Source: Waterburya sp. (GTDB lineage: Bacteria; Cyanobacteriota; Cyanobacteriia; Cyanobacteriales; Xenococcaceae). From it: a DNA stretch of 64,000 nt. The stretch lies in NCBI GenBank assembly GCA_965217895.1, contig CBDCJV010000002.1, positions 256,001 through 320,000 of the forward strand. Direction: 5' to 3'. The position numbers and the translations under genes are program-made. This document shows positions 1,030 to 21,625 of the stretch, one piece after another; position 1 is the stretch's first letter; every line of letters starts with the position of its first letter. The notes under the pieces are model-generated. The model had not been told where the DNA came from. It worked only from the letters and a program-made list of their open reading frames with translations, and ran no database searches.

Positions 1030-1932
1030 TCAGACTGCCAAACGTCCTGCTGCACCGCCAACTGCTGCTGGTAAACCTAGAATAATGCTGTAGCGTAGCC
1101 AGACAAACCAAGGATCGCTAAAGGCTATTTTTTGAAAAAACCATAGCATTAACATTCCTGTTAGCAAAGATATTAAGTATGATACAACAGTTTCACTTTG
1201 GGGAGATTGAAAGAGTCCCTGCTGCTGACGACGCTGCTTAGAATTGGTAATATTAGAAGCAAAAACAATACCGTAAGAAATTAGTAAAGAAGCTGCCACA
1301 ATAAGTAATAGCCAAAAGGGAGAAGCGGAAGCTGCTAGTACAGTCACTTCATCTGTAGGTGCAATACTAAAGGCAATAAATAAAGCTCCAATCAAGGTGG
1401 CACTAAAGTCGGCTATAGTATCTTGCCAAACTAATCGATCTACAGTATCAGTCTGAGATTTGTTTGGCTTGCGTCGATCTGAATCAACTTCAGATTCATC
1501 GCCCAAAAGCGATCGCGAAAAAGTGACTCCCAAAGAAAAAGGTACGCCTTCAAATACTATTTTGCCTAATGCTTCGCTTAAAGATGTGTGTAAATCGATG
1601 CGCTGTAAAATAATTAACATCATGGTAGCGCAGGTAATACCGATTGCTAAGGTTTCTATAGTTTCGGCGATCGCACCTAGTAAAGTATCACTTTCTTGAG
1701 GACGAAATCCTTCGATGCGATTAAACAAGAAAACAATGATCAGGGTAAGTGCTAATATGCCCAGTAATATTGCTGGTTGAACATAAGAGCCAATAAACCA
1801 GACTTCCATTGTATACAGAAGAGGAATTCCAAAAAGAAAGCCTCCAGATGCTCCGCTAACAATTTCTTTTATTTCGTCCCGCCAATTATCTCCTCGAGGA
1901 GCGTTATGGCGATTTTTGCTTTGTTTTTTCAC
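1030..1932 (-). CDS. TIGR02587 family integral membrane protein (DUF2391)
   Basis: GGFLFGIPLLYTMEVW, IAPTDEV and terminal GGAAGRLAV motifs. Confidence 0.85.
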   Translation of the reverse strand: MKKQSKNRHNAPRGDNWRDEIKEIVSGASGGFLFGIPLLYTMEVWFIGSYVQPAILLGILALTLIIVFLFNRIEGFRPQESDTLLGAIAETIETLAIGITCATMMLIILQRIDLHTSLSEALGKIVFEGVPFSLGVTFSRSLLGDESEVDSDRRKPNKSQTDTVDRLVWQDTIADFSATLIGALFIAFSIAPTDEVTVLAASASPFWLLLIVAASLLISYGIVFASNITNSKQRRQQQGLFQSPQSETVVSYLISLLTGMLMLWFFQKIAFSDPWFVWLRYSIILGLPAAVGGAAGRLAV

Positions 1933-2029
1933 ATACTATGTATTTTTTTGTCAGCAAAAAGGTCGGTAAACGACCGTATTTTATGATAAATTACCGACCT
2001 TATATGTTAACGTCAACCAAGCTTATTGA

Positions 2030-2230
2030 TTAACGAGCTTCTGTACCTTGATTAGGAGAACCTGGAGTTTCGGATCTAGCACCAGGTGCTTCAGGTGCTG
2101 CATTTTTGGTTTCTTGCTTTACACCTTGTCCTGTTAAACGTTGTTCTGGATCTACAGGAGTTTGATATCCACCATCCGCAGCAGGAGTTGCTGTTTCTTT
2201 ATCTGTTTCTTTTTCTTTTGAATCTGCCAT
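2030..2230 (-). CDS. small hydrophilic hypothetical protein
   Basis: 66 aa, ATG start, AGG upstream, charged/Pro-rich composition typical of stress-cluster peptides. Confidence 0.6.
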   Translation of the reverse strand: MADSKEKETDKETATPAADGGYQTPVDPEQRLTGQGVKQETKNAAPEAPGARSETPGSPNQGTEAR

Positions 2231-2294
2231 GATTTTTACCTATTGACATTGTTGTTAGCTATTAATAGTATTTAAGTTTTTTTCAATCATCAAA

Positions 2295-2310
2295 ACTATC
2301 TTGAGATAGA
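2295..2310. promoter_or_regulatory. palindromic motif (a/t)CTATC-N4-GATAGA, putative TF site
   Basis: ACTATCTTGAGATAGA in a divergent promoter; similar site at 7045-7060. Confidence 0.4.
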
Positions 2311-2472
2311 GATGAACTGTGCCTTTAATACAAAGGTTCTATAGTACAAACAACTATATCTATAGTCATATACTATAGAAAAAATAGATATCTCATTGGT
2401 TAGATGTAAGTATATTCAACCAACAATAATATGAGAGTTGAAATTATTTAATAATTTGAGAAAGAAATAATT

Positions 2473-3447
2473 ATGGCATTAGCAAAAATTGCAGATTTAT
2501 ATCCTAATTACAAAGAAGATATTTTTGGTGGCGAAGATATCAAAGATTTTTCAGTATATGACCTTAATAATGATAAAATTGGTTCAGTCTACGACATTAT
2601 TGTTGATGAAACTGGTAGTTTTCGCTACCTAGTTTTGGACACTGGATTTTGGATTTTTGGTAAAAAGGTTTTGTTACCAGTAGGTAAAGCAAACGTTGAT
2701 TATAGCCAACGCCGAGTCTATGCCAAGGGCTTAACCAAAGACCAAGCGGAAAGCTTGCCCGAATATAGCGATGATATGACCGTCGATCATGATTACGAAG
2801 AAAGAGTCAGAAGAGTATATCGCGGTGTGGGATATGATGACACAAATACAGTTCGCGATGGAGTAGCACAAGAATACGATAGCGGTGCTTATAACACTAC
2901 CACAGCCAATGACTACACTTACGATCGTGAGCCAGATTTATACTCTCATCAAGAAGCAGACGGTCTTCAAAGCCTAAAACTTTATGAAGAGCGTTTAGTA
3001 GCCAACAAAGAACGTTTCCGTGCAGGTTCGGTAACAGTAGGAAAAAGAGTTGAAACTGAGACAGCAAATGTCTCCGTCCCTGTAGAAAAAGAAAGAGTTG
3101 TGATTGAGCGTACCACACCTACTACTAATGATGTGGTTACACCTGGAGAAGCTGCCTTTGGCGGAGGCGAAGTTGCTCGTGTAGAACTATATGAAGAGAC
3201 TGCTGATATTCAAAAGCAAGCATTTGTTAGAGAAGAAGTAAGCGTTCGCAAAGAAGTAGAGAAAGATATTGTATCTGCTAACGAAACCATACGTCGTGAA
3301 GAACTTGATGTGGAAACAGACGGTGATGCCGTTGTCAACAGAAACATTGACGGAGACGAAGATATTAACAGAAATAGAGATATTGACAGAAATAGAGATA
3401 TTGACAGAAATAGAGATATTGACAGAAACAGAAGAGACAACATCTAA
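2473..3447 (+). CDS. PRC-barrel + YsnF/AvaK (DUF2382) stress protein
   Basis: FRYLVLDTGFWIFGKKVLLPVG (PRC barrel); LYEERLVANK...VREEVSVRKEV (DUF2382). Confidence 0.9.
   Translation: MALAKIADLYPNYKEDIFGGEDIKDFSVYDLNNDKIGSVYDIIVDETGSFRYLVLDTGFWIFGKKVLLPVGKANVDYSQRRVYAKGLTKDQAESLPEYSDDMTVDHDYEERVRRVYRGVGYDDTNTVRDGVAQEYDSGAYNTTTANDYTYDREPDLYSHQEADGLQSLKLYEERLVANKERFRAGSVTVGKRVETETANVSVPVEKERVVIERTTPTTNDVVTPGEAAFGGGEVARVELYEETADIQKQAFVREEVSVRKEVEKDIVSANETIRREELDVETDGDAVVNRNIDGDEDINRNRDIDRNRDIDRNRDIDRNRRDNI
3361..3432 (+). repeat. in-frame 18-bp tandem repeat x4 (DIDRNR)
   Basis: gatattRacagaaaYaga x4. Confidence 0.9.
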
Positions 3448-3474
3448 GTTACGGATTATTTAATCTTTTCATAG

Positions 3475-3516
3475 TAAATGCAGGTAGGTATTAAACCCTA
3501 CCTGCATTTATTTTTT
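3475..3516 (+). terminator. intrinsic terminator
   Basis: taaatgcaggtagg/cctacctgcattta stem followed by a T-run. Confidence 0.75.
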
Positions 3517-3545
3517 GTCTGTAGTTTTATATTAGCGATCTCATA

Positions 3546-3691
3546 CTAAATCTTGTTGGTATAGGTTACTTAACTGTTGGATTAAGAAGTAGGTAGTAGG
3601 TAGTTAGTCGCTTGTAGTTTTTTGGAATTACGAACTACAAACTACGAACAACTAACTTAATACTTAAGATGCTTTTTCCAATCGGATTTAG
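3546..3691. mobile_element. MITE with IS630-type ends, copy 2
   Basis: TA|CTAAATC...AATCGGATTTAG|TA, TA target duplication, internal heptamer hairpin. Confidence 0.75.
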
Positions 3692-16071: not shown

Positions 16072-17883
16072 TTAAAAGCCAACGCCGTTAGCATCAATAC
16101 CAACTAACTGATCCAATTGACTTTCTGATAGAGCATCGCCACCAAGATTATCATACTGCTGAATCAAAGCAGAAGCAAAAGGCGCATTGTAGCTTGTTCC
16201 AACTTCATTGGTGATCGCATCATCACGGCGGTCATTGTGAGAATAATCATCCGCATAACGAGGACCACCAACTATTGCACCATAAAGAATATGTTCGGCT
16301 GGTGTTGTAGGTTGAGCGCCTATGTTAGGAGAAGAACCTCGATGGTGAGGACGCTGAGGATAATTATCCCCAAAGCCAATCATATAGCTATAGTTAAGAG
16401 GATTATCACCTAAAATATAGTCCACTTGATTATGAGCAAAGTTGCTGTAGCGAGAATCTTGTTTAACAGTATCATTATAAAGCTGTGCAAAAAACGCAGC
16501 CGAACTAGTTACAGGAATCGAACCCCATTCAGCACGATGAGCAAAACCACCCGCCGTATATTGAATATTAGCGTTGCCATTGACCCAGTTATTTAACCAG
16601 CCTTCTACCTGACCTTTAAAGAAAGGATCTTTACTTTCTTGAGCCAAAATAACCGCAGCATCATAAGAATGCTCATCTGCTGCTGAAGACCAGTCTCCTA
16701 AACCACCAACTTTAGTTTTGAAGTAGTCTTCAGCTTTATTTAGGTAAGACTGTTCTTTTGTAGCTTTGTATAACCAAGCAGCACCAGAAGCTAACTCATC
16801 TCCAAAACCACCCCAGCTAGTATAGAAAGGATTAGCAGCAGCTACTGAATCAGAATATTTGCCCTGATAAGTTTCGGCAAACTCATATAGCTGTTTAGCG
16901 TTGGTGAGTAATTTATCGGCATAGGCATTATCTACTCCACGAAACAGCATCGAAGCTGATGCTAAAGCACTAGAAGTCAAGGCAGCCACATCAGTTCCAG
17001 GATGGGTAGGATCGATAGCAAAGGCATTACGGGTAGTGTGTTGTTCTACCGTCTCTGGCGCACCCCAATAGCCATGATCGTTAGCAACACCGCCTTCTCC
17101 AACTTGAACCCAGAGTTTGGCAGTTTTACCACCACTAGTTTCATGAGCCTTGAGGAAATAATCTGTTCCCCATTTAACAGCGTCTAAGAGTTCGTCAAAC
17201 TGTCCTGACTGCTTGTAAGCATCGGTATACTCCACACCACCCCAAGCCAGCATATTAATCGAGGCTGCCATGGGTTGACCAAATTTGACGTGATCTCCTG
17301 CATCAAAGTAACCGCCTTCTAGGTCGCGACCAACGGTACTACCGTCATGAACTGTAGCATCACCACGCCATTCGATGCGGTTGTCAGGTCCCAAGTCTCC
17401 AGAGCGATTGGCTTCTAAGAAGAGGAAGTTTTTTTGTAGGGCTTCACCGTAGGCGAATTTACCTTTTTGTCCTACAGATTTACCTGGCTCATTGGGAATA
17501 TTAACCGGAGTACTAGGAGTTGTTGGTTTTGGAGTAGAGATTGGGTCTGGAGTAGATATTGGATCGACTAGATTGCTATCAAATTGAGGAGTTAATGCTT
17601 GTTGCCCATTGTCGTCAACGATGAAGATTGGTTTGATAGATTGTCCTGTTTTGAGGCTTACTTGGTCGTTTTGACCGCTAATAGTATACGTGCCGTTGCC
17701 ATTATCTACTAGATCTACGCCATAAGTTTCTTTGATAGTGTAAGGAAGATTAAATTCTAGTTTCCATTGGTTAGCATCTGATTTTGGGGTTAAGTCTAGT
17801 TCTAATTTGTAGCCATTTTGCCAGTCTTCAGTTATCGAAGCGTTGGTGTTGAAAATTGAGTTGGATGTTGTGTTAGTAGCCAT
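16072..17883 (-). CDS. glycoside hydrolase family 9 (endoglucanase) with N-terminal CBM2-like domain and P/T linker
   Basis: DLEGGYFDAGDHVKF, PQRPHHR, YGAIVGGP, NEV..SYNA. Confidence 0.9.
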   Translation of the reverse strand: MATNTTSNSIFNTNASITEDWQNGYKLELDLTPKSDANQWKLEFNLPYTIKETYGVDLVDNGNGTYTISGQNDQVSLKTGQSIKPIFIVDDNGQQALTPQFDSNLVDPISTPDPISTPKPTTPSTPVNIPNEPGKSVGQKGKFAYGEALQKNFLFLEANRSGDLGPDNRIEWRGDATVHDGSTVGRDLEGGYFDAGDHVKFGQPMAASINMLAWGGVEYTDAYKQSGQFDELLDAVKWGTDYFLKAHETSGGKTAKLWVQVGEGGVANDHGYWGAPETVEQHTTRNAFAIDPTHPGTDVAALTSSALASASMLFRGVDNAYADKLLTNAKQLYEFAETYQGKYSDSVAAANPFYTSWGGFGDELASGAAWLYKATKEQSYLNKAEDYFKTKVGGLGDWSSAADEHSYDAAVILAQESKDPFFKGQVEGWLNNWVNGNANIQYTAGGFAHRAEWGSIPVTSSAAFFAQLYNDTVKQDSRYSNFAHNQVDYILGDNPLNYSYMIGFGDNYPQRPHHRGSSPNIGAQPTTPAEHILYGAIVGGPRYADDYSHNDRRDDAITNEVGTSYNAPFASALIQQYDNLGGDALSESQLDQLVGIDANGVGF

Positions 17884-18053
17884 AATGAGTAACTTTTTTT
17901 TTGTTGAACTTGTTACCTTTATAAAAGCTTTACAAACTCTTTACCGTGACTTCATAACTCCTGCCGTGTGGATATAGATCACAATTTTTATTGAGGTGAG
18001 TTTTTGATGGCGAGGGGTGCTACGTGCAGACAAGTCCTTCGTGTTTAGGAAGC

Positions 18054-20231
18054 AAGGAGTTGAGGGAGAGTATTACCTCTGGCCCCTCTCTGTTAGATCT
18101 GTACGTGCGTCTTTCGACGCATACAGCTCCCGAAACTTTTAGCTGTCGCTTTTACGGTTGTGTATATAGTCATGACAGGATTCGTGTATTGCCACTAAAT
18201 TGTTATGACTCCAGTTGTTGTGATTTCCATCTACATGGTGTAGATTTACTTTCTCATTGCCTATGAGTTTTAATCTACAGGCTACAGATGAATGGTTTTG
18301 CCTTCTAAGGGCTTTAGAGGTTTCTCCATCGTATAGTTTGCTGTTGCGTTTACTCCAGTAAACTATATCTCCGTCAAATGGGGATTTATCTCCTTTGACG
18401 TTGATGAATTTATTTTCGGAGTATGGGACTTTTGGGAACGCTATATCCAGAAGTTTTTTGCTAGAATAACGGTCTTGTTTTGTTTGCCGATTAAATACCT
18501 TAAACGCTCTTTTCTGCATATAGTAGAGGCTATTTCTAGCCCCATCCATTTTGCAGTAGCAATGGTAGTTTCTCCATCCTCTAACAACGGCGGCTAGTTT
18601 ACTAGCCTTGACCGTCGCACCATAGTTGGAGTTATTGATGATAGATTTTGTTTTCCTATAGAAAGCTCTGAAGTTTTCCACCGAAGGTCGGCTTCTGAAC
18701 TTTCCATTCTTTTGGACTCGAAAATTCCAGCCCAGGAAGTTGAATCCATCTGTCGTTGCTGTCAGCTTTGTCTTTGTTTCGCTGATTTCCATTCCTCGTT
18801 TGGCAAGGAATTCTTTAACCTCATCAAGTATTTTTTTAGCATCGTCTTGAGGTTTTAGGATGTAAATCATATCGTCTGCATATCTAATACATTTTGATGT
18901 GCTTAATCCCCTGGTGCTTTTATATTCACCAATGTTCTCAATTGCGTTGAGTGCTATGTTAGCTAATAAAGGCGAAGCAACCCCGCCCTGTGGCGTTCCT
19001 TGTTCTGGAAATCCTACATTTGTTCCTGCTTTGAGGCATCTGAAGATGCCAAGCTTTAACCCTGATGGGGCAATTAGGTTCTCCATAATTGTGGAATGGT
19101 TGATTCTATCAAAGCATTTTTTAATATCAATTTCGAGTACTCGTTTATTGATACCTTTCACTCTCGCATTTAAGTTGTCGAACAGGTGCTTTTGCGCGCA
19201 ATGCGTGCTTCTTCCTGTTCTGAAACCGTAACTACGGGCGTGGAAAGTGGCTTCGTGTGCTGGTTCTAAAGCGTATTTTGCCAGGCATTGCCAAGCTCTG
19301 TCGCTAATAGTTGGAACTTTTAAAATTCGTTTAGTACCATCCTTTTTTGGGATAGGTATTTCCCGTAATCCTTGGTGTTTCCAATTATTAACTTTCAACT
19401 TTATTTGTTTTTCGAGTTCAAAGCGTTCTTGAAAATTCAAGTTACCTTTTCCGTCGATACCAGCGGTTTTCTTTCCCTCGTTTAGCTGTGTTACTTGCCT
19501 AATGGCTAAGAATCTTGCTCCTTGAGAGCGGAGTATCAGTTTTTGCAGTGACCTTGCTTTTTGCATATCTGCTGCTCGAACTGCTTTCCATACGCGCTTT
19601 TGTAAGCGGAAAGTCTCTTTTTGGAATTTCTTCCAAGGTAAGAATTCCCAGGATTCACTATTAACTGTGTCAATGTGTCTAATCATGCTTTACTCTAGTT
19701 TGTATGTTCTAAGTTCCTCAGACCAATTACGGTCTGTCCTACCCGAATCTAAGGGATTAATCCTCTCGTCTGGTCTACCGTGGATGCGACCTATCCACAG
19801 ACCTTAGATTCGTTTTTATTCGTTCCATTCGATTGATGTTTATTTCCTTTAGGTAGAATCAATTAAACCGCCTAAATCCCATACTCTTGCCAATGTCTTG
19901 GATAAAACTTGGCGGGATACATAGCTTAGGCAACCTCGGACTAGGAATTGCGTCCGTGTAGGCGTAGGTTTCTTTTCTAGGTTCTGTTTTACCGTGGGAA
20001 TTCCCTATTAGCGTCAGTGTCTTCTGCAATTGAAGTCTGATTACGCCCTGTTCCCAGCTTCGCTCTGTAGAATTCCGAGTCTACTCGGCGTGGGCAGATA
20101 AGGAGTCACCCGTGAGTTTCGGGGGGAGGGCTTGCACCTCCATTAATCGAACAGTTATCATCTAGCTAATGAAAACTAGAAGCCCTGATTTATATGGGTT
20201 TTATCTCACTTTCGTCAGGAACGAATCGCAC
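18054..20231 (-). mobile_element. group II intron (IIB/chloroplast-like type), intergenic
   Basis: 5' GTGCGATTCG at 20231; DI closed by ATTCGTTCC/GGAACGAAT; EBS1 ATCCAA (19898-19903) pairs with IBS1 TTGGGT; DV GAGCTGTATGCGTCGAAAGACGCACGTACAG at ~18099-18129; 3' end uncertain by 1-2 nt. Confidence 0.9.
18139..19686 (-). CDS. ltrA: group II intron reverse transcriptase/maturase with HNH domain
   Basis: GKKTAGIDG, SYGFR, GTPQGG, YADD, GFNFLG, GWRNY, LHHVDGNHNN...CHDYIH. Confidence 0.95.
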   Translation of the reverse strand: MIRHIDTVNSESWEFLPWKKFQKETFRLQKRVWKAVRAADMQKARSLQKLILRSQGARFLAIRQVTQLNEGKKTAGIDGKGNLNFQERFELEKQIKLKVNNWKHQGLREIPIPKKDGTKRILKVPTISDRAWQCLAKYALEPAHEATFHARSYGFRTGRSTHCAQKHLFDNLNARVKGINKRVLEIDIKKCFDRINHSTIMENLIAPSGLKLGIFRCLKAGTNVGFPEQGTPQGGVASPLLANIALNAIENIGEYKSTRGLSTSKCIRYADDMIYILKPQDDAKKILDEVKEFLAKRGMEISETKTKLTATTDGFNFLGWNFRVQKNGKFRSRPSVENFRAFYRKTKSIINNSNYGATVKASKLAAVVRGWRNYHCYCKMDGARNSLYYMQKRAFKVFNRQTKQDRYSSKKLLDIAFPKVPYSENKFINVKGDKSPFDGDIVYWSKRNSKLYDGETSKALRRQNHSSVACRLKLIGNEKVNLHHVDGNHNNWSHNNLVAIHESCHDYIHNRKSDS

Positions 20232-20317
20232 ACCCAATCGCCATGTTGATACTCTCTAATGCTTGTTTTATATGAATCTTATCAGGCTGGTCGTTTAAGA
20301 AATTTTGGAAAAAATGT

Positions 20318-21625
20318 TTATTCGTAGAATTTAACCAGCGTTCTACGAGCGATCGCTCTAGTCTCTAACTTATGATATTGCTCGGCTTGAGACATTTTAA
20401 AATGTAATAATTCGCTTTGAGAAAGATAATTTATCTGCTGGGGCTTAACTGGAATAAATTCCATTGCCTTAATAATCTCTTGGGCGACTGCTTTGGCTAG
20501 CAGAGGCGGAACAGAATTACCAATCTGCCGAAAGCCATGCCACTTAGTAGCATGAAGCATAAACCAATCAGGATAGGAATGCAGCCGTGCAGCCTCTCTA
20601 ACGGTAATACAACGGGGAGTAAGGGGATGAATGGGGCGAGGAGAAGTAAACGCTCCATGATTACTAGCCGTACCTGCCCTGAGGGTTGTACACAGACCGT
20701 TTAAATCTAGACGATGAAAATGACTAATGCGATCGCTTTTTCCAGGAATAGTTGCCGCAAATCTGGCAATAGTTTGGTCGGTGTGTTTGGTACGGCGACT
20801 ACAGGTTAAAAGTTCGAGTTTATATTCGCGCTGATAAGCGTAATCATCGTTTACCAAGGTTAGATTACGCAATTTACTAGCATATTCACTGGGTTGACCA
20901 TAATTGGCTACTACCCAATCTCTAAGCTCTAATTCAGGATAATTATTAGCTTCTGGAAGATCGCCAATAGCATCTTGTACGGTTGGGGTAGGAGGCAAAC
21001 CCCAATACTTTTTTGCTGAAGAATCTAGGGCTTTTTGAATTGAAGGCTGGGTTAAAGGTTGAGGATAATTTAGTAAGGTGAAACCCTGCCGACAGCCAAG
21101 GAGAAATAATCTGCGACGATTTTGCGGGACTCCATAATGGGCAGCATTTAAAACCTGATAGTTTTCCGCAACTTGATAGCCATAACTTTTAAACTCTTCA
21201 ATTATGGTCTGGAGAATTTTTTGATGTTTGCCGATGGTAATTCCCCGCACATTTTCCATCACAAAAAATTTAGGATTTAAATCCAAAACCAGGCGCAGGA
21301 AATGAGACACTAAGGAATTGCGATCGTCGTCAAAATTCCGTTTTCCCATCAGGGAAAAGCCTTGACAGGGAGGTCCTCCAAAGACTACATCAATATCGCG
21401 ATCGCCGATTGTTGATAATTCCCTAATTTCTCTGCCAGTGATTTCAGTAACGCTTTTGCAAATGGTCGTCCAAAAAGGAAAATTATATTCGTGGACGCTG
21501 GCATGAATTGGATCTAATTCTACTGCTGCTAAAACATCAAATCCAGCTTGTTCAAAACCGAGGGTCATTCCTCCCGCGCCAGCGAATAAATCTACAGCTA
21601 TTGGTCGTCGATCGTTAGTAGCCAT
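20318..21625 (-). CDS. dcm: orphan DNA (cytosine-5)-methyltransferase, probably the conserved cyanobacterial CGATCG type
   Basis: FAGAGG, GGPPCQGFS, ENV, QxRxR, QIGNSV; no adjacent REase; specificity inferred. Confidence 0.9.
   Translation of the reverse strand: MATNDRRPIAVDLFAGAGGMTLGFEQAGFDVLAAVELDPIHASVHEYNFPFWTTICKSVTEITGREIRELSTIGDRDIDVVFGGPPCQGFSLMGKRNFDDDRNSLVSHFLRLVLDLNPKFFVMENVRGITIGKHQKILQTIIEEFKSYGYQVAENYQVLNAAHYGVPQNRRRLFLLGCRQGFTLLNYPQPLTQPSIQKALDSSAKKYWGLPPTPTVQDAIGDLPEANNYPELELRDWVVANYGQPSEYASKLRNLTLVNDDYAYQREYKLELLTCSRRTKHTDQTIARFAATIPGKSDRISHFHRLDLNGLCTTLRAGTASNHGAFTSPRPIHPLTPRCITVREAARLHSYPDWFMLHATKWHGFRQIGNSVPPLLAKAVAQEIIKAMEFIPVKPQQINYLSQSELLHFKMSQAEQYHKLETRAIARRTLVKFYE

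What the first reader, a model, noticed from the sequence alone, without database searches (positions are those of the whole stretch)
18007..20244. Three-level nesting: group II intron inside a ~46-nt palindromic micro-element that splits a HIP1 site
Seen: removing the intron (18054-20231) gives, on the minus strand, CATGGCGA-TTGGGT|GCTTCCTAAACACGAAGGACTTGTCTGCACGTAGCACCCC-TCGCCATC. Its GGGTGCT/AGCACCC arms only pair once the intron is removed. Removing the 46-nt insert then restores ATGGCGATCGCCAT, an intact HIP1. EBS1 (ATCCAA, 19898-19903) pairs with TTGGGT of the insert. A candidate EBS2 (CGCC) pairs with GGCG of the HIP1 half-site, so the target would span the HIP1/insert junction. Established: very small repeats that insert into HIP1 (SDR-type) occur in cyanobacteria. 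Inference: this intron homes into a multicopy HIP1-inserting micro-element, a parasite of a parasite using an intergenic safe harbour.
Basis: partly seen in the sequence, partly recalled or inferred. Interest (0 to 1): 0.78.

Follow-up and report, generated by a model that had tools for sequence, protein, structure and literature searches.

The report
Mobile intron inside tiny hairpin repeat
A mobile self-splicing intron sits in all three copies of one variant of a 50-base hairpin repeat in this cyanobacterial genome: one genetic parasite lodged in another, but the hairpin did not land in a HIP1 site.

Summary
The sequence observation holds. A group II intron lies on the minus strand (window 20231 to about 18056) inside a small palindromic element. 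It has three near-identical copies in the genome, all in the same about 70-nt context. EBS1 (19898-19903) pairs with TTGGGT. A CGCC at 19961-19964 pairs with GGCG. Both positions covary with the 5' exon in related introns.

Orthologous and paralogous empty sites read ATCAA followed directly by the flank, with no HIP1. The inserted unit is about 49 nt and brings its own GCGA/TCGC arms plus a second ATCAA. The element belongs to a family of about 37 hairpins: CAAC, 7-nt arm, about 30 nt, complementary arm, CAA. About 22 of these have arms that are not HIP1 halves.

Its 19-nt core is a dispersed repeat found in 24 of 39 genus genomes.

The window copy lacks 3 nt at its 3' end and is probably splicing-impaired.

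Verdict: an ordinary homing intron using a multicopy hairpin micro-element as its site.

The parts
20246..20250 (-). ATCAA: the target or left direct repeat. It is the only part of the site present in the empty orthologous allele.
   Evidence: Empty site in G023 (L023) reads ...gagagcATCAA|AAACTCACC. The same logic holds at locus B and in MITE-like repeat ends.
20232..20245 (-). 5' part of the hairpin micro-element: C, basal arm ATGGCGA, then the first 6 nt of the interior (TTGGGT). IBS2 GGCG is at 20239-20242 and IBS1 TTGGGT at 20232-20237.
   Evidence: Shared by all 3 intron copies. Continuous with the 3' part in intron-less relatives. Pairing partners identified.
18056..20231 (-). Group II intron, copy A (2176 nt). 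It lacks 3 nt of the 3' tail that copies B and C have.
   Evidence: GTGCG start; RF00029 hit; three-copy alignment; 3' end consensus of relatives. The B/C-type tail appears in independent contigs at about 2:1 depth over the A type.
19961..19964 (-). EBS2 candidate CGCC. It pairs with GGCG at exon positions -11 to -8.
   Evidence: The homologous alignment column pairs with each relative's own exon: G019 GAGTT/GACTC, G035 GACAG/CTGTC, G026 CCTAA/TTAGG. Coordinates come, corrected by one base.
19898..19903 (-). EBS1 ATCCAA, in the loop of the GCCAA/TTGGC hairpin. It pairs with TTGGGT, with one G-U pair.
   Evidence: Covariation with the exon in relatives: G026 TCGACC/GGTCGA, G015 CGAAGC/GCTTCG, G019 GGATTC/GAATTC. 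Coordinates.
18139..19686 (-). Intron-encoded protein, 515 aa: RT, maturase, and an HNH-like C-terminal stretch. The YADD motif is present.
   Evidence: Pfam RVT_N, RVT_1 and GIIM; translation; nearest solved chain 6me0_C at E 6.4e-64. The ORF is intact in all three copies.
18054..18131 (-). Domains V and VI as matched by Rfam. The last 2 nt of the match are exon by my boundary.
18004..18055 (-). 3' part of the hairpin micro-element (52 nt). It ends in arm TCGCCAT (18007-18013) and CAA (18004-18006). The right-hand ATCAA is at 18004-18008.
   Evidence: Shared by the 3 copies with 3 single-base differences. Homologous to the intron-less elements of relatives.
18022..18042 (-). 21-nt loop module (ACGAAGGACTTGTCTGCACGT). 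It stands where relatives have 3 nt (GGA). It is a copy of a genus-wide small dispersed repeat.
   Evidence: Comparison with the short-loop elements. The 19-nt core is found in 24 of 39 genus genomes, up to 44 copies per genome, with reversed-pattern controls at 0. Seven further copies lie in this genome in other contexts.
20318..21625 (-). Upstream neighbour: C-5 cytosine DNA methyltransferase gene, on the same strand as the intron.
16072..17883 (-). Downstream neighbour: glycosyl hydrolase family 9 gene, on the same strand. The element ends 120 nt before its start codon.

Best explanation
This is a standard mobile group II intron with an RT-maturase protein that has an HNH-like tail. It finds its site by base pairing, and its homing site lies inside a tiny mobile hairpin repeat.

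The hairpin. It is a discrete insert of about 49 nt. The framed sequence reads CAAC, 7-nt arm, about 30-nt interior that is itself a hairpin, complementary arm, CAA. It lands at (A)TCAA and leaves ATCAA on both sides. The GCGA and TCGC that look like HIP1 halves are the inner ends of its own basal stem.

The pairing. EBS2 (CGCC) pairs with the arm (GGCG). EBS1 (AUCCAA) pairs with the first six interior bases (UUGGGU). Insertion falls between interior bases 6 and 7. Every copy of the TTGGGT variant in this genome (3 of 3) is now occupied.

The loop module. Before the intron arrived, these three hairpins had each acquired a 21-nt small-dispersed-repeat module in their loop. The window locus is therefore nested four deep: TCAA site, hairpin, then loop module and intron.

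The state of the copies. The window copy lost 3 nt at the 3' splice region and has a changed first exon base, so it is probably splicing-impaired. Copy B has an extra T in domain V. Copy C carries neither of these two changes and is the likely active copy.

Shown: copy number, boundaries, empty sites, family architecture, pairing and covariation. Inferred: the order of events, the splicing defects, and how the hairpin itself moves (enzyme unknown).
For: Intron identity.

Three copies with shared flanks.

Empty and filled alleles:
- Locus A: G023 empty, G017 filled without intron.
- Locus B: G017 empty; G019, G020 and G023 filled without intron.
- Within this genome: 8 MITE-like ends, of which 6 read ...GTCATCAA followed directly by the rest of the repeat and 2 carry the hairpin after ATCAA. 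A third hairpin-bearing end, with ATTAA on its right side, was seen.

Family census: 47 perfect-arm hits, against 2-13 for five control frame words. By my reading, 37 have the family's structured interior. Of these, 15 have GCGA...TCGC arm ends and 22 do not. Compensatory arm changes are seen within one variant (AAGTCGA/TCGACTT; GCCTCC/GGAGGC).

Hairpin stability: the simple element folds at -15.7 kcal/mol with DNA parameters, z = -6.9.

EBS1/EBS2 covariation.

Lineage tie to the family: of the 5 closest 5' fragments of this intron lineage in other species (84-93% identity over the first 104-160 nt), 4 follow [C/T][C/A]AAC + 7 nt + 6 nt in the same register. These are G036, G022, G020 and G006.

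Relative ages: the element flanks are more diverged than the introns. There are 3 differences in 213 nt against 3 events in 6535 nt, Fisher p = 0.0006. If the exon +1 change is counted together with the deletion, p = 0.009.

The copy A tail variant is real: contigs of run X1 show the B/C form at depth 435 of 597.
Against: - The 21-nt loop module and the intron are perfectly associated: 3 of 3 occupied elements have the module and 0 of 9 unoccupied TTGGGT elements in relatives do. This hints at joint spread or co-conversion rather than independent events.
- At loci A and B the relatives carry the short-loop form. This genome's long-loop form at both loci therefore needs parallel module insertion, conversion or re-insertion.
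- No intron-less long-loop TTGGGT element was found anywhere.
- EBS2 pairing is only 4 bp.
- GCGA...TCGC arm ends are the largest single class (15 of 37, plus the 3 occupied copies), so a historical link to HIP1 is not excluded.
- Pfam did not call an HNH domain. I read the motif by eye.
- No transposase for the hairpin was identified; the genome gave one weak Y1_Tnp hit at 28 bits.
- No RNA data are available.
- The TTGGGT target variant was found in only 4 of 38 other genus genomes.
Confidence: 0.75

Rival explanations
1. A generic HIP1 site (GCGATCGC) pre-existed. An SDR-type palindromic module inserted into its centre, and the intron then entered the module.
For: As strings, removing the interior leaves ATGGCGATCGCCAT. 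Passages of two papers state that Elhai et al. 2008 reported precise insertion of a 21-nt module, SDR5, into HIP1 in heterocystous cyanobacteria (PMC4390886; PMC13756078; PMC5861425). GCGA...TCGC arms are the commonest arm class. The interiors are modular: the same core hairpin occurs with different second tiers and arms, as expected if modules drop into carriers.
Against: All empty alleles found lack HIP1 and lack the arms. None of the 13 uninterrupted ATGGCGATCGCCAT sites in this genome has the CAAC/CAA frame. A carrier-only pattern gave 0 exact hits and only 4 one-mismatch hits in 3 of 39 genomes, in unconvincing contexts. Twenty-two of 37 family members have non-HIP1 arms. The interior is 30 nt, or 48-49 nt here, not 21.
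Confidence: 0.1
2. The composite (hairpin + loop module + intron) spreads as one unit. Either the hairpin's own transposition carries the intron as cargo, or intron homing co-converts about 35 nt of 3' exon. Under this model the three copies are not independent homing events into pre-existing identical sites.
For: The loop module and the intron co-occur perfectly (3 of 3 against 0 of 9). This genome has the long-loop form at two loci where relatives have the short-loop form. The module begins at exon position +14, close to where En-type introns are known to cut the bottom strand (about +9/+10; this figure is my recollection, not a call).
Against: Flank divergence is about 30 times that of the intron (Fisher p = 0.0006 to 0.009), which fits older elements invaded later. 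A diverged hairpin in G017 carries the same module at the same loop position without any intron (L008, L013), so the module-in-loop state exists independently of the intron. Bacterial retrohoming is not known to co-convert distal 3' exon sequence (recalled).
Confidence: 0.15
3. The hairpin family is not mobile DNA but a set of structured RNA or regulatory elements kept by selection, and the intron simply targets a conserved functional motif.
For: Compensatory changes keep the arms and inner stems paired. The fold is strongly non-random (z = -6.9). The frame is oriented (CAAC ... CAA).
Against: Presence/absence polymorphism at orthologous sites is precise to the base and duplicates ATCAA. The element inserts inside other repeats. 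No Rfam family comes near its gathering score. The contexts are heterogeneous. Palindromic DNA can also keep its arms matched by templated repair.
Confidence: 0.05

Closest known systems
Mobile bacterial group II introns with homing-site (EBS/IBS) specificity. The nearest solved relative of the protein is PDB 6me0 chain C, 'Maturase reverse transcriptase'; I recall this as the Thermosynechococcus T.el4h intron RNP.
   Same: GUGCG 5' end, domains V/VI, ORF in domain IV with RT and maturase domains and YADD, EBS1/IBS1 and EBS2/IBS2 pairing, several near-identical copies per genome, mostly outside genes.
   Different: The homing site is not a gene or a unique intergenic sequence. It is the 5' arm of a roughly 50-nt multicopy hairpin repeat, and 4 of the 5 closest fragments in other species sit at the same register of that repeat family.
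Class C (IIC) group II introns that insert at transcription terminators or integron attC stem-loops (review PMC4424553, passages read).
   Same: An intron associated with a DNA inverted-repeat motif that occurs many times per genome.
   Different: IIC introns lack the En domain and insert at the hairpin motif of terminators or attC sites. That they sit just downstream of the hairpin and lack EBS2 is my recollection. This intron has EBS2, a C-terminal HNH-like stretch, and sits inside the 5' arm. It is selected by about 10 bp of sequence pairing.
Small dispersed repeats (SDR) of heterocystous cyanobacteria, including SDR5 inserted in HIP1 (Elhai et al. 2008). I know this work only through passages of PMC4390886, PMC5861425 and PMC13756078; the primary paper is not held.
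   Same: Very small, nested, hairpin-forming repeats in a HIP1-rich filamentous-type cyanobacterial genome. The 21-nt loop module here behaves like such a repeat, and the hairpin interiors are modular.
   Different: The empty sites of the hairpin carry ATCAA, not HIP1. The insert is 49 nt, not 21. Sequence identity to any named SDR family could not be checked.
Twintrons and introns lodged in other mobile DNA (review PMC4424553).
   Same: A retroelement that uses another selfish element as a harmless landing site. True twintrons of a sister intron lineage occur in the same genus.
   Different: The host element here is not an intron or an IS. It is a protein-less micro-hairpin about 1/40 the size of its guest.
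Insertion sequences that target REP/BIME palindromes (titles seen in the reference list of PMC3116915).
   Same: A larger mobile element specialised on a small extragenic palindromic repeat.
   Different: Those are DNA transposons that recognise the palindrome through a transposase. Here recognition is RNA-DNA pairing by a ribozyme.

Membership tests
Group II intron (mobile, ORF-containing) | 5' GUGYG and conserved domains V/VI | tested here: met
   GTGCG at 20231. RF00029 scores 46.7 bits against a gathering score of 40.
Group II intron (mobile, ORF-containing) | Intron-encoded RT with maturase domain and YADD | tested here: met
   RVT_N, RVT_1 (E 2e-37) and GIIM. YADD seen in the translation. 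6me0_C at E 6.4e-64.
Group II intron (mobile, ORF-containing) | EBS1-IBS1 and EBS2-IBS2 pairing with the 5' exon | tested here: met
   ATCCAA/TTGGGT and CGCC/GGCG. The homologous columns covary with the exon in at least 3 relatives each.
Group II intron (mobile, ORF-containing) | DNA endonuclease (HNH) domain | tested here: inconclusive
   No Pfam HNH hit at E <= 0.001. An H-H...N...H-type stretch is visible at the C-terminus.
Group II intron (mobile, ORF-containing) | Intact 3' end (domain VI basal helix plus tail) in this copy | tested here: not met
   Window copy A lacks 3 nt that are present in copies B and C and in 30 of 30 related 3' ends. Exon +1 is changed from A to T. Copies B and C meet this feature.
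Class C (IIC) terminator/attC-targeting introns | No EBS2; insertion just downstream of a stem-loop; no En domain | tested here: not met
   An EBS2 homologue is present. Insertion is inside the 5' arm, 13 nt after CAAC. The protein is 515 aa with an HNH-like tail.
SDR5-type insertion into HIP1 | The empty site is an intact GCGATCGC | tested here: not met
   Empty alleles read ATCAA|flank.
SDR5-type insertion into HIP1 | 21-nt module of defined sequence | not testable with these tools
   The length comes from a passage of PMC13756078. The sequence is in Elhai 2008, which is not held. The interior here is 30 nt in relatives and 48 nt in the window copy (49 nt in copies B and C).
MITE-like non-autonomous DNA element | Terminal inverted repeats and a target-site duplication, with presence/absence polymorphism | tested here: met
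   7-nt complementary arms, ATCAA on both sides, empty and filled alleles.
MITE-like non-autonomous DNA element | A cognate autonomous element or transposase | tested here: inconclusive
   Only Y1_Tnp was tried: one 28-bit partial hit. The repeat context around four copies is a mosaic of short repeats, not an IS.
HIP1 (GCGATCGC) | Intact octamer at the site | tested here: not met
   No intact octamer at the site in the window or in the empty alleles. The genome as a whole is HIP1-rich: 5,824 plus 82 copies.

The most novel reading that the evidence does not exclude
This intron lineage is a dedicated hyperparasite of the CAAC-arm-hairpin-arm-CAA micro-element family across the genus. Its protein would read the constant frame: CAAC lies at exon positions -17 to -14 in the G000 copies and in G036, G022 and G006, with TAAC in G020. 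The ribozyme's EBS2 and EBS1 would track the variable arm and second tier. Small EBS changes would then let the intron hop between hairpin sub-variants (TTGGGT, TTGGAC, TTTTAC, TTGCAG). A bolder corollary is that intron integration or its RT contributes to the turnover of the hairpins themselves. That would explain why the loop module and the intron travel together.
Probability: 0.3. Interest if true: 0.6.

Novelty: new member of a known kind. Interest (0 to 1): 0.42.

Why it matters
This is a clean, dated example of layered selfish DNA in a bacterium: a TCAA site, a 49-nt hairpin, a 21-nt module and a 2.2-kb retroelement. Empty, half-filled and filled alleles are all preserved in sister species.

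It corrects a tempting misreading. Some hairpin repeats in HIP1-rich genomes only look like insertions into HIP1, because their own stems end in GCGA/TCGC.

For intron biology, it shows an EBS-guided intron of the homing-site type using a multicopy micro-palindrome as a safe harbour. In the review passages I read, hairpin-motif targets are described only for class C introns.

If the lineage-level specialisation holds, the system would be a natural experiment in intron retargeting.

None of this changes the known mechanism of group II mobility.

Tried and rejected
- **Intron-less copy of the exact 46-nt core in this genome.** None found. blastn-short with the computed exon junction hit only the three occupied copies.
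- **Intron-less long-loop element elsewhere.** None in 61 relatives. Zero exact hits in metagenome contigs.
- **More 5' exons of this lineage from metagenomes.** One hit (L155): a roughly 55-nt intron fragment whose upstream sequence begins TCAAC but is not in register. Uninformative.
- **Closer intron relatives via the protein in 185,579 species genomes.** Eight loci, the best at 74% identity, with unrelated or twintron sites.
- **Family-level DNA search with the first 160 nt.** Ten of 61 genomes matched. Only one match lay outside the genus (G083, 80%), and its CAAC is in a different register.
- **3' arms matching the four fragment-bearing hairpins.** Not found in the held loci.
- **Carrier-only HIP1 form.** See rival 1.
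- **IS200/IS605 idea for hairpin mobility** (the reverse strand reads TTGAT|...TTGAT|). Only one weak Y1_Tnp hit, so I dropped it as unsupported.
- **Rfam at E <= 5 on an intron-less element.** Only noise, far below gathering scores.
- **Locus C orthologues.** Flank homology ends about 180 nt before the site in all 5 relatives. Uninformative.
- **Expression.** No RNA holder was listed for the stretch. The laid runs were contigs only.
- **Literature.** The primary SDR paper (PMC2527708) is not held. Searches listed no paper whose title or abstract start describes a group II intron homing into SDR-like or HIP1-associated hairpins. This covers only the held library.
- **Earlier scan notes.** None for this genome.
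- **Folding error.** The first fold of the long element was one base short because of a slicing error of mine. I repeated it correctly: -12.4 kcal/mol, z = -2.9.
Full report
**What is at the coordinates**

On the minus strand, GTGCG begins at window 20231. Rfam's group II intron model (domains V/VI) matches 18054-18131 at 46.7 bits, above the gathering score of 40. A 515-aa ORF at 18139-19686 carries RVT_N, RVT_1 and the maturase domain GIIM. It has YADD and an H-H...N...H-type C-terminal stretch that Pfam did not call. Its nearest solved relative is chain 6me0_C, 'Maturase reverse transcriptase', at E 6.4e-64. The neighbours are a C-5 DNA methyltransferase gene upstream and a GH9 glycosidase gene downstream, both on the same strand. 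The genome (5.29 Mb, 39% G+C) holds 5,824 + 82 copies of GCGATCGC.

**Copies**

The genome has three copies that are more than 99.9% identical:
- A is the window copy.
- B is at C2:35432-37611.
- C is at C2:2702008-2699830.

All three share the 19 nt ATCAACATGGCGATTGGGT on the 5' side and about 52 nt on the 3' side, ending in TCGCCATCAA. Beyond these the flanks are unrelated.

**The 3' boundary**

Thirty related 3' ends from the genus all read ...CTC[T/A]A[C/A]C. In my table 29 show the final C directly. The thirtieth (L057) is shifted by one base in my extrapolation and reads ...CTCTAAC.

Two comparisons with uninterrupted sites place that C in the intron:
- Relatives' intron-less hairpins read TTGGGTATGCTTCC, whereas copies B and C read TTGGGT[intron...CTCTACC]ATGCTTCC.
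- The twintron site reads GGAATTC[...CTCTACC]TACAG, against the uninterrupted GGAATTCTACAG.

Copies B and C therefore end ...CTCTACC. The window copy reads ...CAACTCC followed by TTGCTTCC. It lacks 3 nt of the tail and has T for A at exon +1.

Contigs of run X1 show the B/C form (an extra 3 nt and the other base) at depth 435 of 597, so the difference is not an assembly slip. X1 may, however, be the sample the genome came from.

The other copies differ as follows. Copy B has an extra T just after the AGC of domain V. Copy C differs only by a synonymous C>T. All three ORFs are intact. I infer that C is the active copy and that A, and perhaps B, are impaired. This was not tested.

**Exon-binding sites**

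I aligned the first 470 nt of 14 related introns. The loop of the GCCAA/TTGGC hairpin holds ATCCAA in this intron (19898-19903). The same columns hold TCGACC, CGAAGC and GGATTC in relatives whose exons end GGTCGA, GCTTCG and GAATTC. EBS1 is therefore confirmed by covariation.

A scan for exon complements found one common alignment column where relatives pair with exon positions -12 to -7/-8: G019/G020 GAGTT/GACTC, G035 GACAG/CTGTC, G026/G025 CCTAA/TTAGG. At that column this intron has CGCC (19961-19964), which pairs with GGCG at -11 to -8. Two other CGCC-containing candidates lie in conserved stems. The recognised sequence spans the hairpin's basal arm and the first six bases of its interior.

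**Is a HIP1 site split? No.**

At the orthologous methylase/GH9 spacer:
- G023 reads ...gagagcATCAA|AAACTCACC..., with no hairpin and no HIP1.
- G017 has, after ATCAA, a 49-nt insert that runs C-ATGGCGA, a 30-nt interior, TCGCTAT, CAA, and no intron.
- G019 and G020 lack a whole segment of about 130 nt that includes the site.

At locus B:
- G017 is empty (...gataATCAA|ATCCCAGC).
- G019, G020 and G023 carry the 49-nt hairpin without an intron.

Within this genome I found eight ends of a MITE-like repeat. Six read ...GTCATCAA followed directly by the rest of the repeat. Two carry a family hairpin after ATCAA. A third hairpin-bearing end, with ATTAA on its right side, was seen.

None of the 13 uninterrupted ATGGCGATCGCCAT sites has the CAAC/CAA frame. 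A carrier-only pattern gave no exact hit and 4 one-mismatch hits in 3 of 39 genus genomes, in contexts that look like ordinary HIP1 sites.

The unit of insertion therefore includes the GCGA and TCGC, and the target is (A)TCAA.

**The family**

A census for CAAC + 7-nt arm + 15-100 nt + reverse-complement arm + CAA gave 47 hits, against 2-13 for five control frame words. By my reading, 37 have the characteristic structured interior, mostly 30 nt.

The arms are:

| Arm | Count |
|---|---|
| ATGGCGA | 9 |
| AGCGGAG | 8 |
| AGGCGAG | 5 |
| AGCGTGG | 4 |
| AAGTGCG | 3 |
| AAGGTGA | 2 |
| six others | 1 each |

Only 15 of the 37 give GCGA...TCGC at the junction.

The interiors are modular. The same core hairpin occurs with different second tiers, and the reverse is also true. 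Within the TTGGGT variant, relatives show compensatory changes: arm AAGTCGA/TCGACTT and inner stem GCCTCC/GGAGGC.

The simple element folds at -15.7 kcal/mol with DNA parameters (z = -6.9). The long-loop form folds at -12.4 kcal/mol (z = -2.9). The spacing spectrum of GGCGA...TCGCC has a peak at 30 nt (20 against a background of about 7) that is almost entirely this family. No Rfam family fits.

**A further nested layer**

The nine unoccupied TTGGGT elements lie in G017, G019, G020 and G023. These are the only four of 39 genus genomes that have this variant, 2-3 copies each. All nine have a 5-nt loop: TAAAC, TAGAC, TTAAC or GTTTA.

The three occupied elements here have 21 nt (18022-18042) where those have GGA. 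The module's 19-nt core, with two Y positions, occurs in 24 of 39 genus genomes, up to 44 times (G023), with controls at 0. It occurs 7 more times in this genome in unrelated contexts. Two diverged hairpins in G017 carry the same module at the same loop position without an intron (L008, L013). The module behaves like a small dispersed repeat.

**Order of events**

The shared flanks differ at 3 positions in 213 nt. The introns differ by 3 events in 6535 nt. Fisher's test gives p = 0.0006, or p = 0.009 if the exon +1 change is lumped with the adjacent deletion. This favours older, already long-looped hairpins invaded recently by the intron.

Against that reading, the module and the intron co-occur perfectly (3 of 3 against 0 of 9). 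In addition, loci A and B have the short-loop form in relatives. I could not resolve whether the module inserted in parallel into all three loops, whether copies were converted, or whether the composite re-inserted at the same ATCAA sites.

**Lineage behaviour**

Full-length relatives in the genus are only about 75% identical and use other sites. Several sit inside fragments of this intron type, as true twintrons.

The closest sequences are 5' fragments: G020 93%, G006 91%, G036 91%, G022 86% and G015 84% over the first 104-160 nt. Four of these five follow a 5' exon of the form [C/T][C/A]AAC + 7 nt + 6 nt, in the same register as here. Examples are CTCAAC-AGCGTGG-TTGGAC| in G036 and G022. That exon matches an intron-less family member of this genome at 17 of 18 positions. 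This suggests, from a small sample, that the lineage is tied to the hairpin family.

**Setting**

- Copy A lies 86 nt after the methylase stop and about 120 nt before the GH9 start.
- Copy B lies between divergent genes, about 50 nt upstream of a FolD-like ORF and in its orientation.
- Copy C's hairpin overlaps the last codons of a 196-aa ORF on the opposite strand.

'Intergenic safe harbour' is therefore broadly right, but not strictly so for C.

**Comparison with what is known**

Passages of the review PMC4424553 make three relevant points:
- Bacterial group II introns mostly lie outside housekeeping genes, often among other mobile DNAs.
- Three target specificities are known: homing sites, terminators and attC.
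- Twintrons occur in bacteria.

This intron uses the ordinary homing-site mode. What is unusual is only the nature of the site.

Passages of PMC4390886, PMC5861425 and PMC13756078 report that a 21-nt SDR5 inserts precisely into HIP1. I could not see the primary paper. Whether the present hairpins or the loop module equal a named SDR remains open.

I did not test it.

**Verdict**

The 'parasite in a parasite' reading is supported, and the 'splits a HIP1 site' reading is refuted for this locus and family. The case is a new member of a known kind and of moderate interest.

Noticed in passing
L052 (G036:C10, locus 1340-3660); L081, L082 (G019); L085 (G020): True twintrons. A sister intron type (starting GTGCGGTTCG) sits at ...GACTCGGAATTC| inside 5' fragments of the window's intron type. 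The same site occurs as a stand-alone fragment in L053.
   Followed up: partly
G023:C1, e.g. L133 locus 1501 and 2683: The 19-nt loop-module core occurs 44 times in G023. Many occurrences are same-strand pairs about 1,182 nt apart with identical 80-nt surroundings, which indicates tandem or long-terminal repeats of a roughly 1.18-kb unit holding a 197-aa ORF.
   Followed up: partly
G000:C2:700968, 755068, 755228, 1386394, 2240190, 2433528, 3629898, 4783919: A MITE-like repeat with ends GGGCGTGTCATCAA and a matching inverted end (...GATGACACGCCC). Two of these eight ends, plus one more seen, carry a family hairpin inserted after ATCAA.
   Followed up: partly
Orthologous spacer: L023 (G023), L002 (G017), L024/L025 (G019/G020) against window 17884-18003: The spacer is a hotspot of tiny indels. 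G023 has another 45-nt palindromic insert about 15 nt downstream of the empty site, G017 has a 15-nt insert there, and G019/G020 lack about 130 nt.
   Followed up: no
L002 (G017 locus A) against L093-L095 (locus B): The 5-nt loop of otherwise identical hairpins is GTTTA at one locus and its reverse complement TAAAC at the other. This is a loop inversion, as expected from strand switching in a palindrome.
   Followed up: no
window 17986-20309, run X1: Run X1 also holds a second, related organism or allele at depth about 229. Its contig skips 2,322 nt here and matches the G019/G020-type spacer. Another contig (depth 134) carries a different 30-nt hairpin interior that begins TTGGGTGTGCG, mimicking the exon-intron junction.
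   Followed up: no
G000:C2:2699231-2699830 (L092): At intron copy C, a 196-aa ORF on the opposite strand reads into the hairpin element and stops inside it. The hairpin insertion seems to have replaced the gene's last codons.
   Followed up: no
G000:C2 genome-wide: GGCGA...TCGCC spacing has a second sharp peak at 8 nt (56 cases) and at 7 nt (26). An example is the GGCGAGGAAACCTCGCC-type mini-hairpin, which also appears as the core of some family members.
   Followed up: no
G000:C2:2075882-2076459, 5130232-5131327, 3418654-3419130: Three further diverged group II intron fragments (70-79% identical to parts of this intron) lie elsewhere in the genome.
   Followed up: no
L148 (named Pleurocapsa MAG contig) against L057 (G015:C124): The same intron 5' flank of 70 nt appears in a genus-g1 genome and in a contig labelled as a different order. 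This suggests recent transfer or bin contamination.
   Followed up: no
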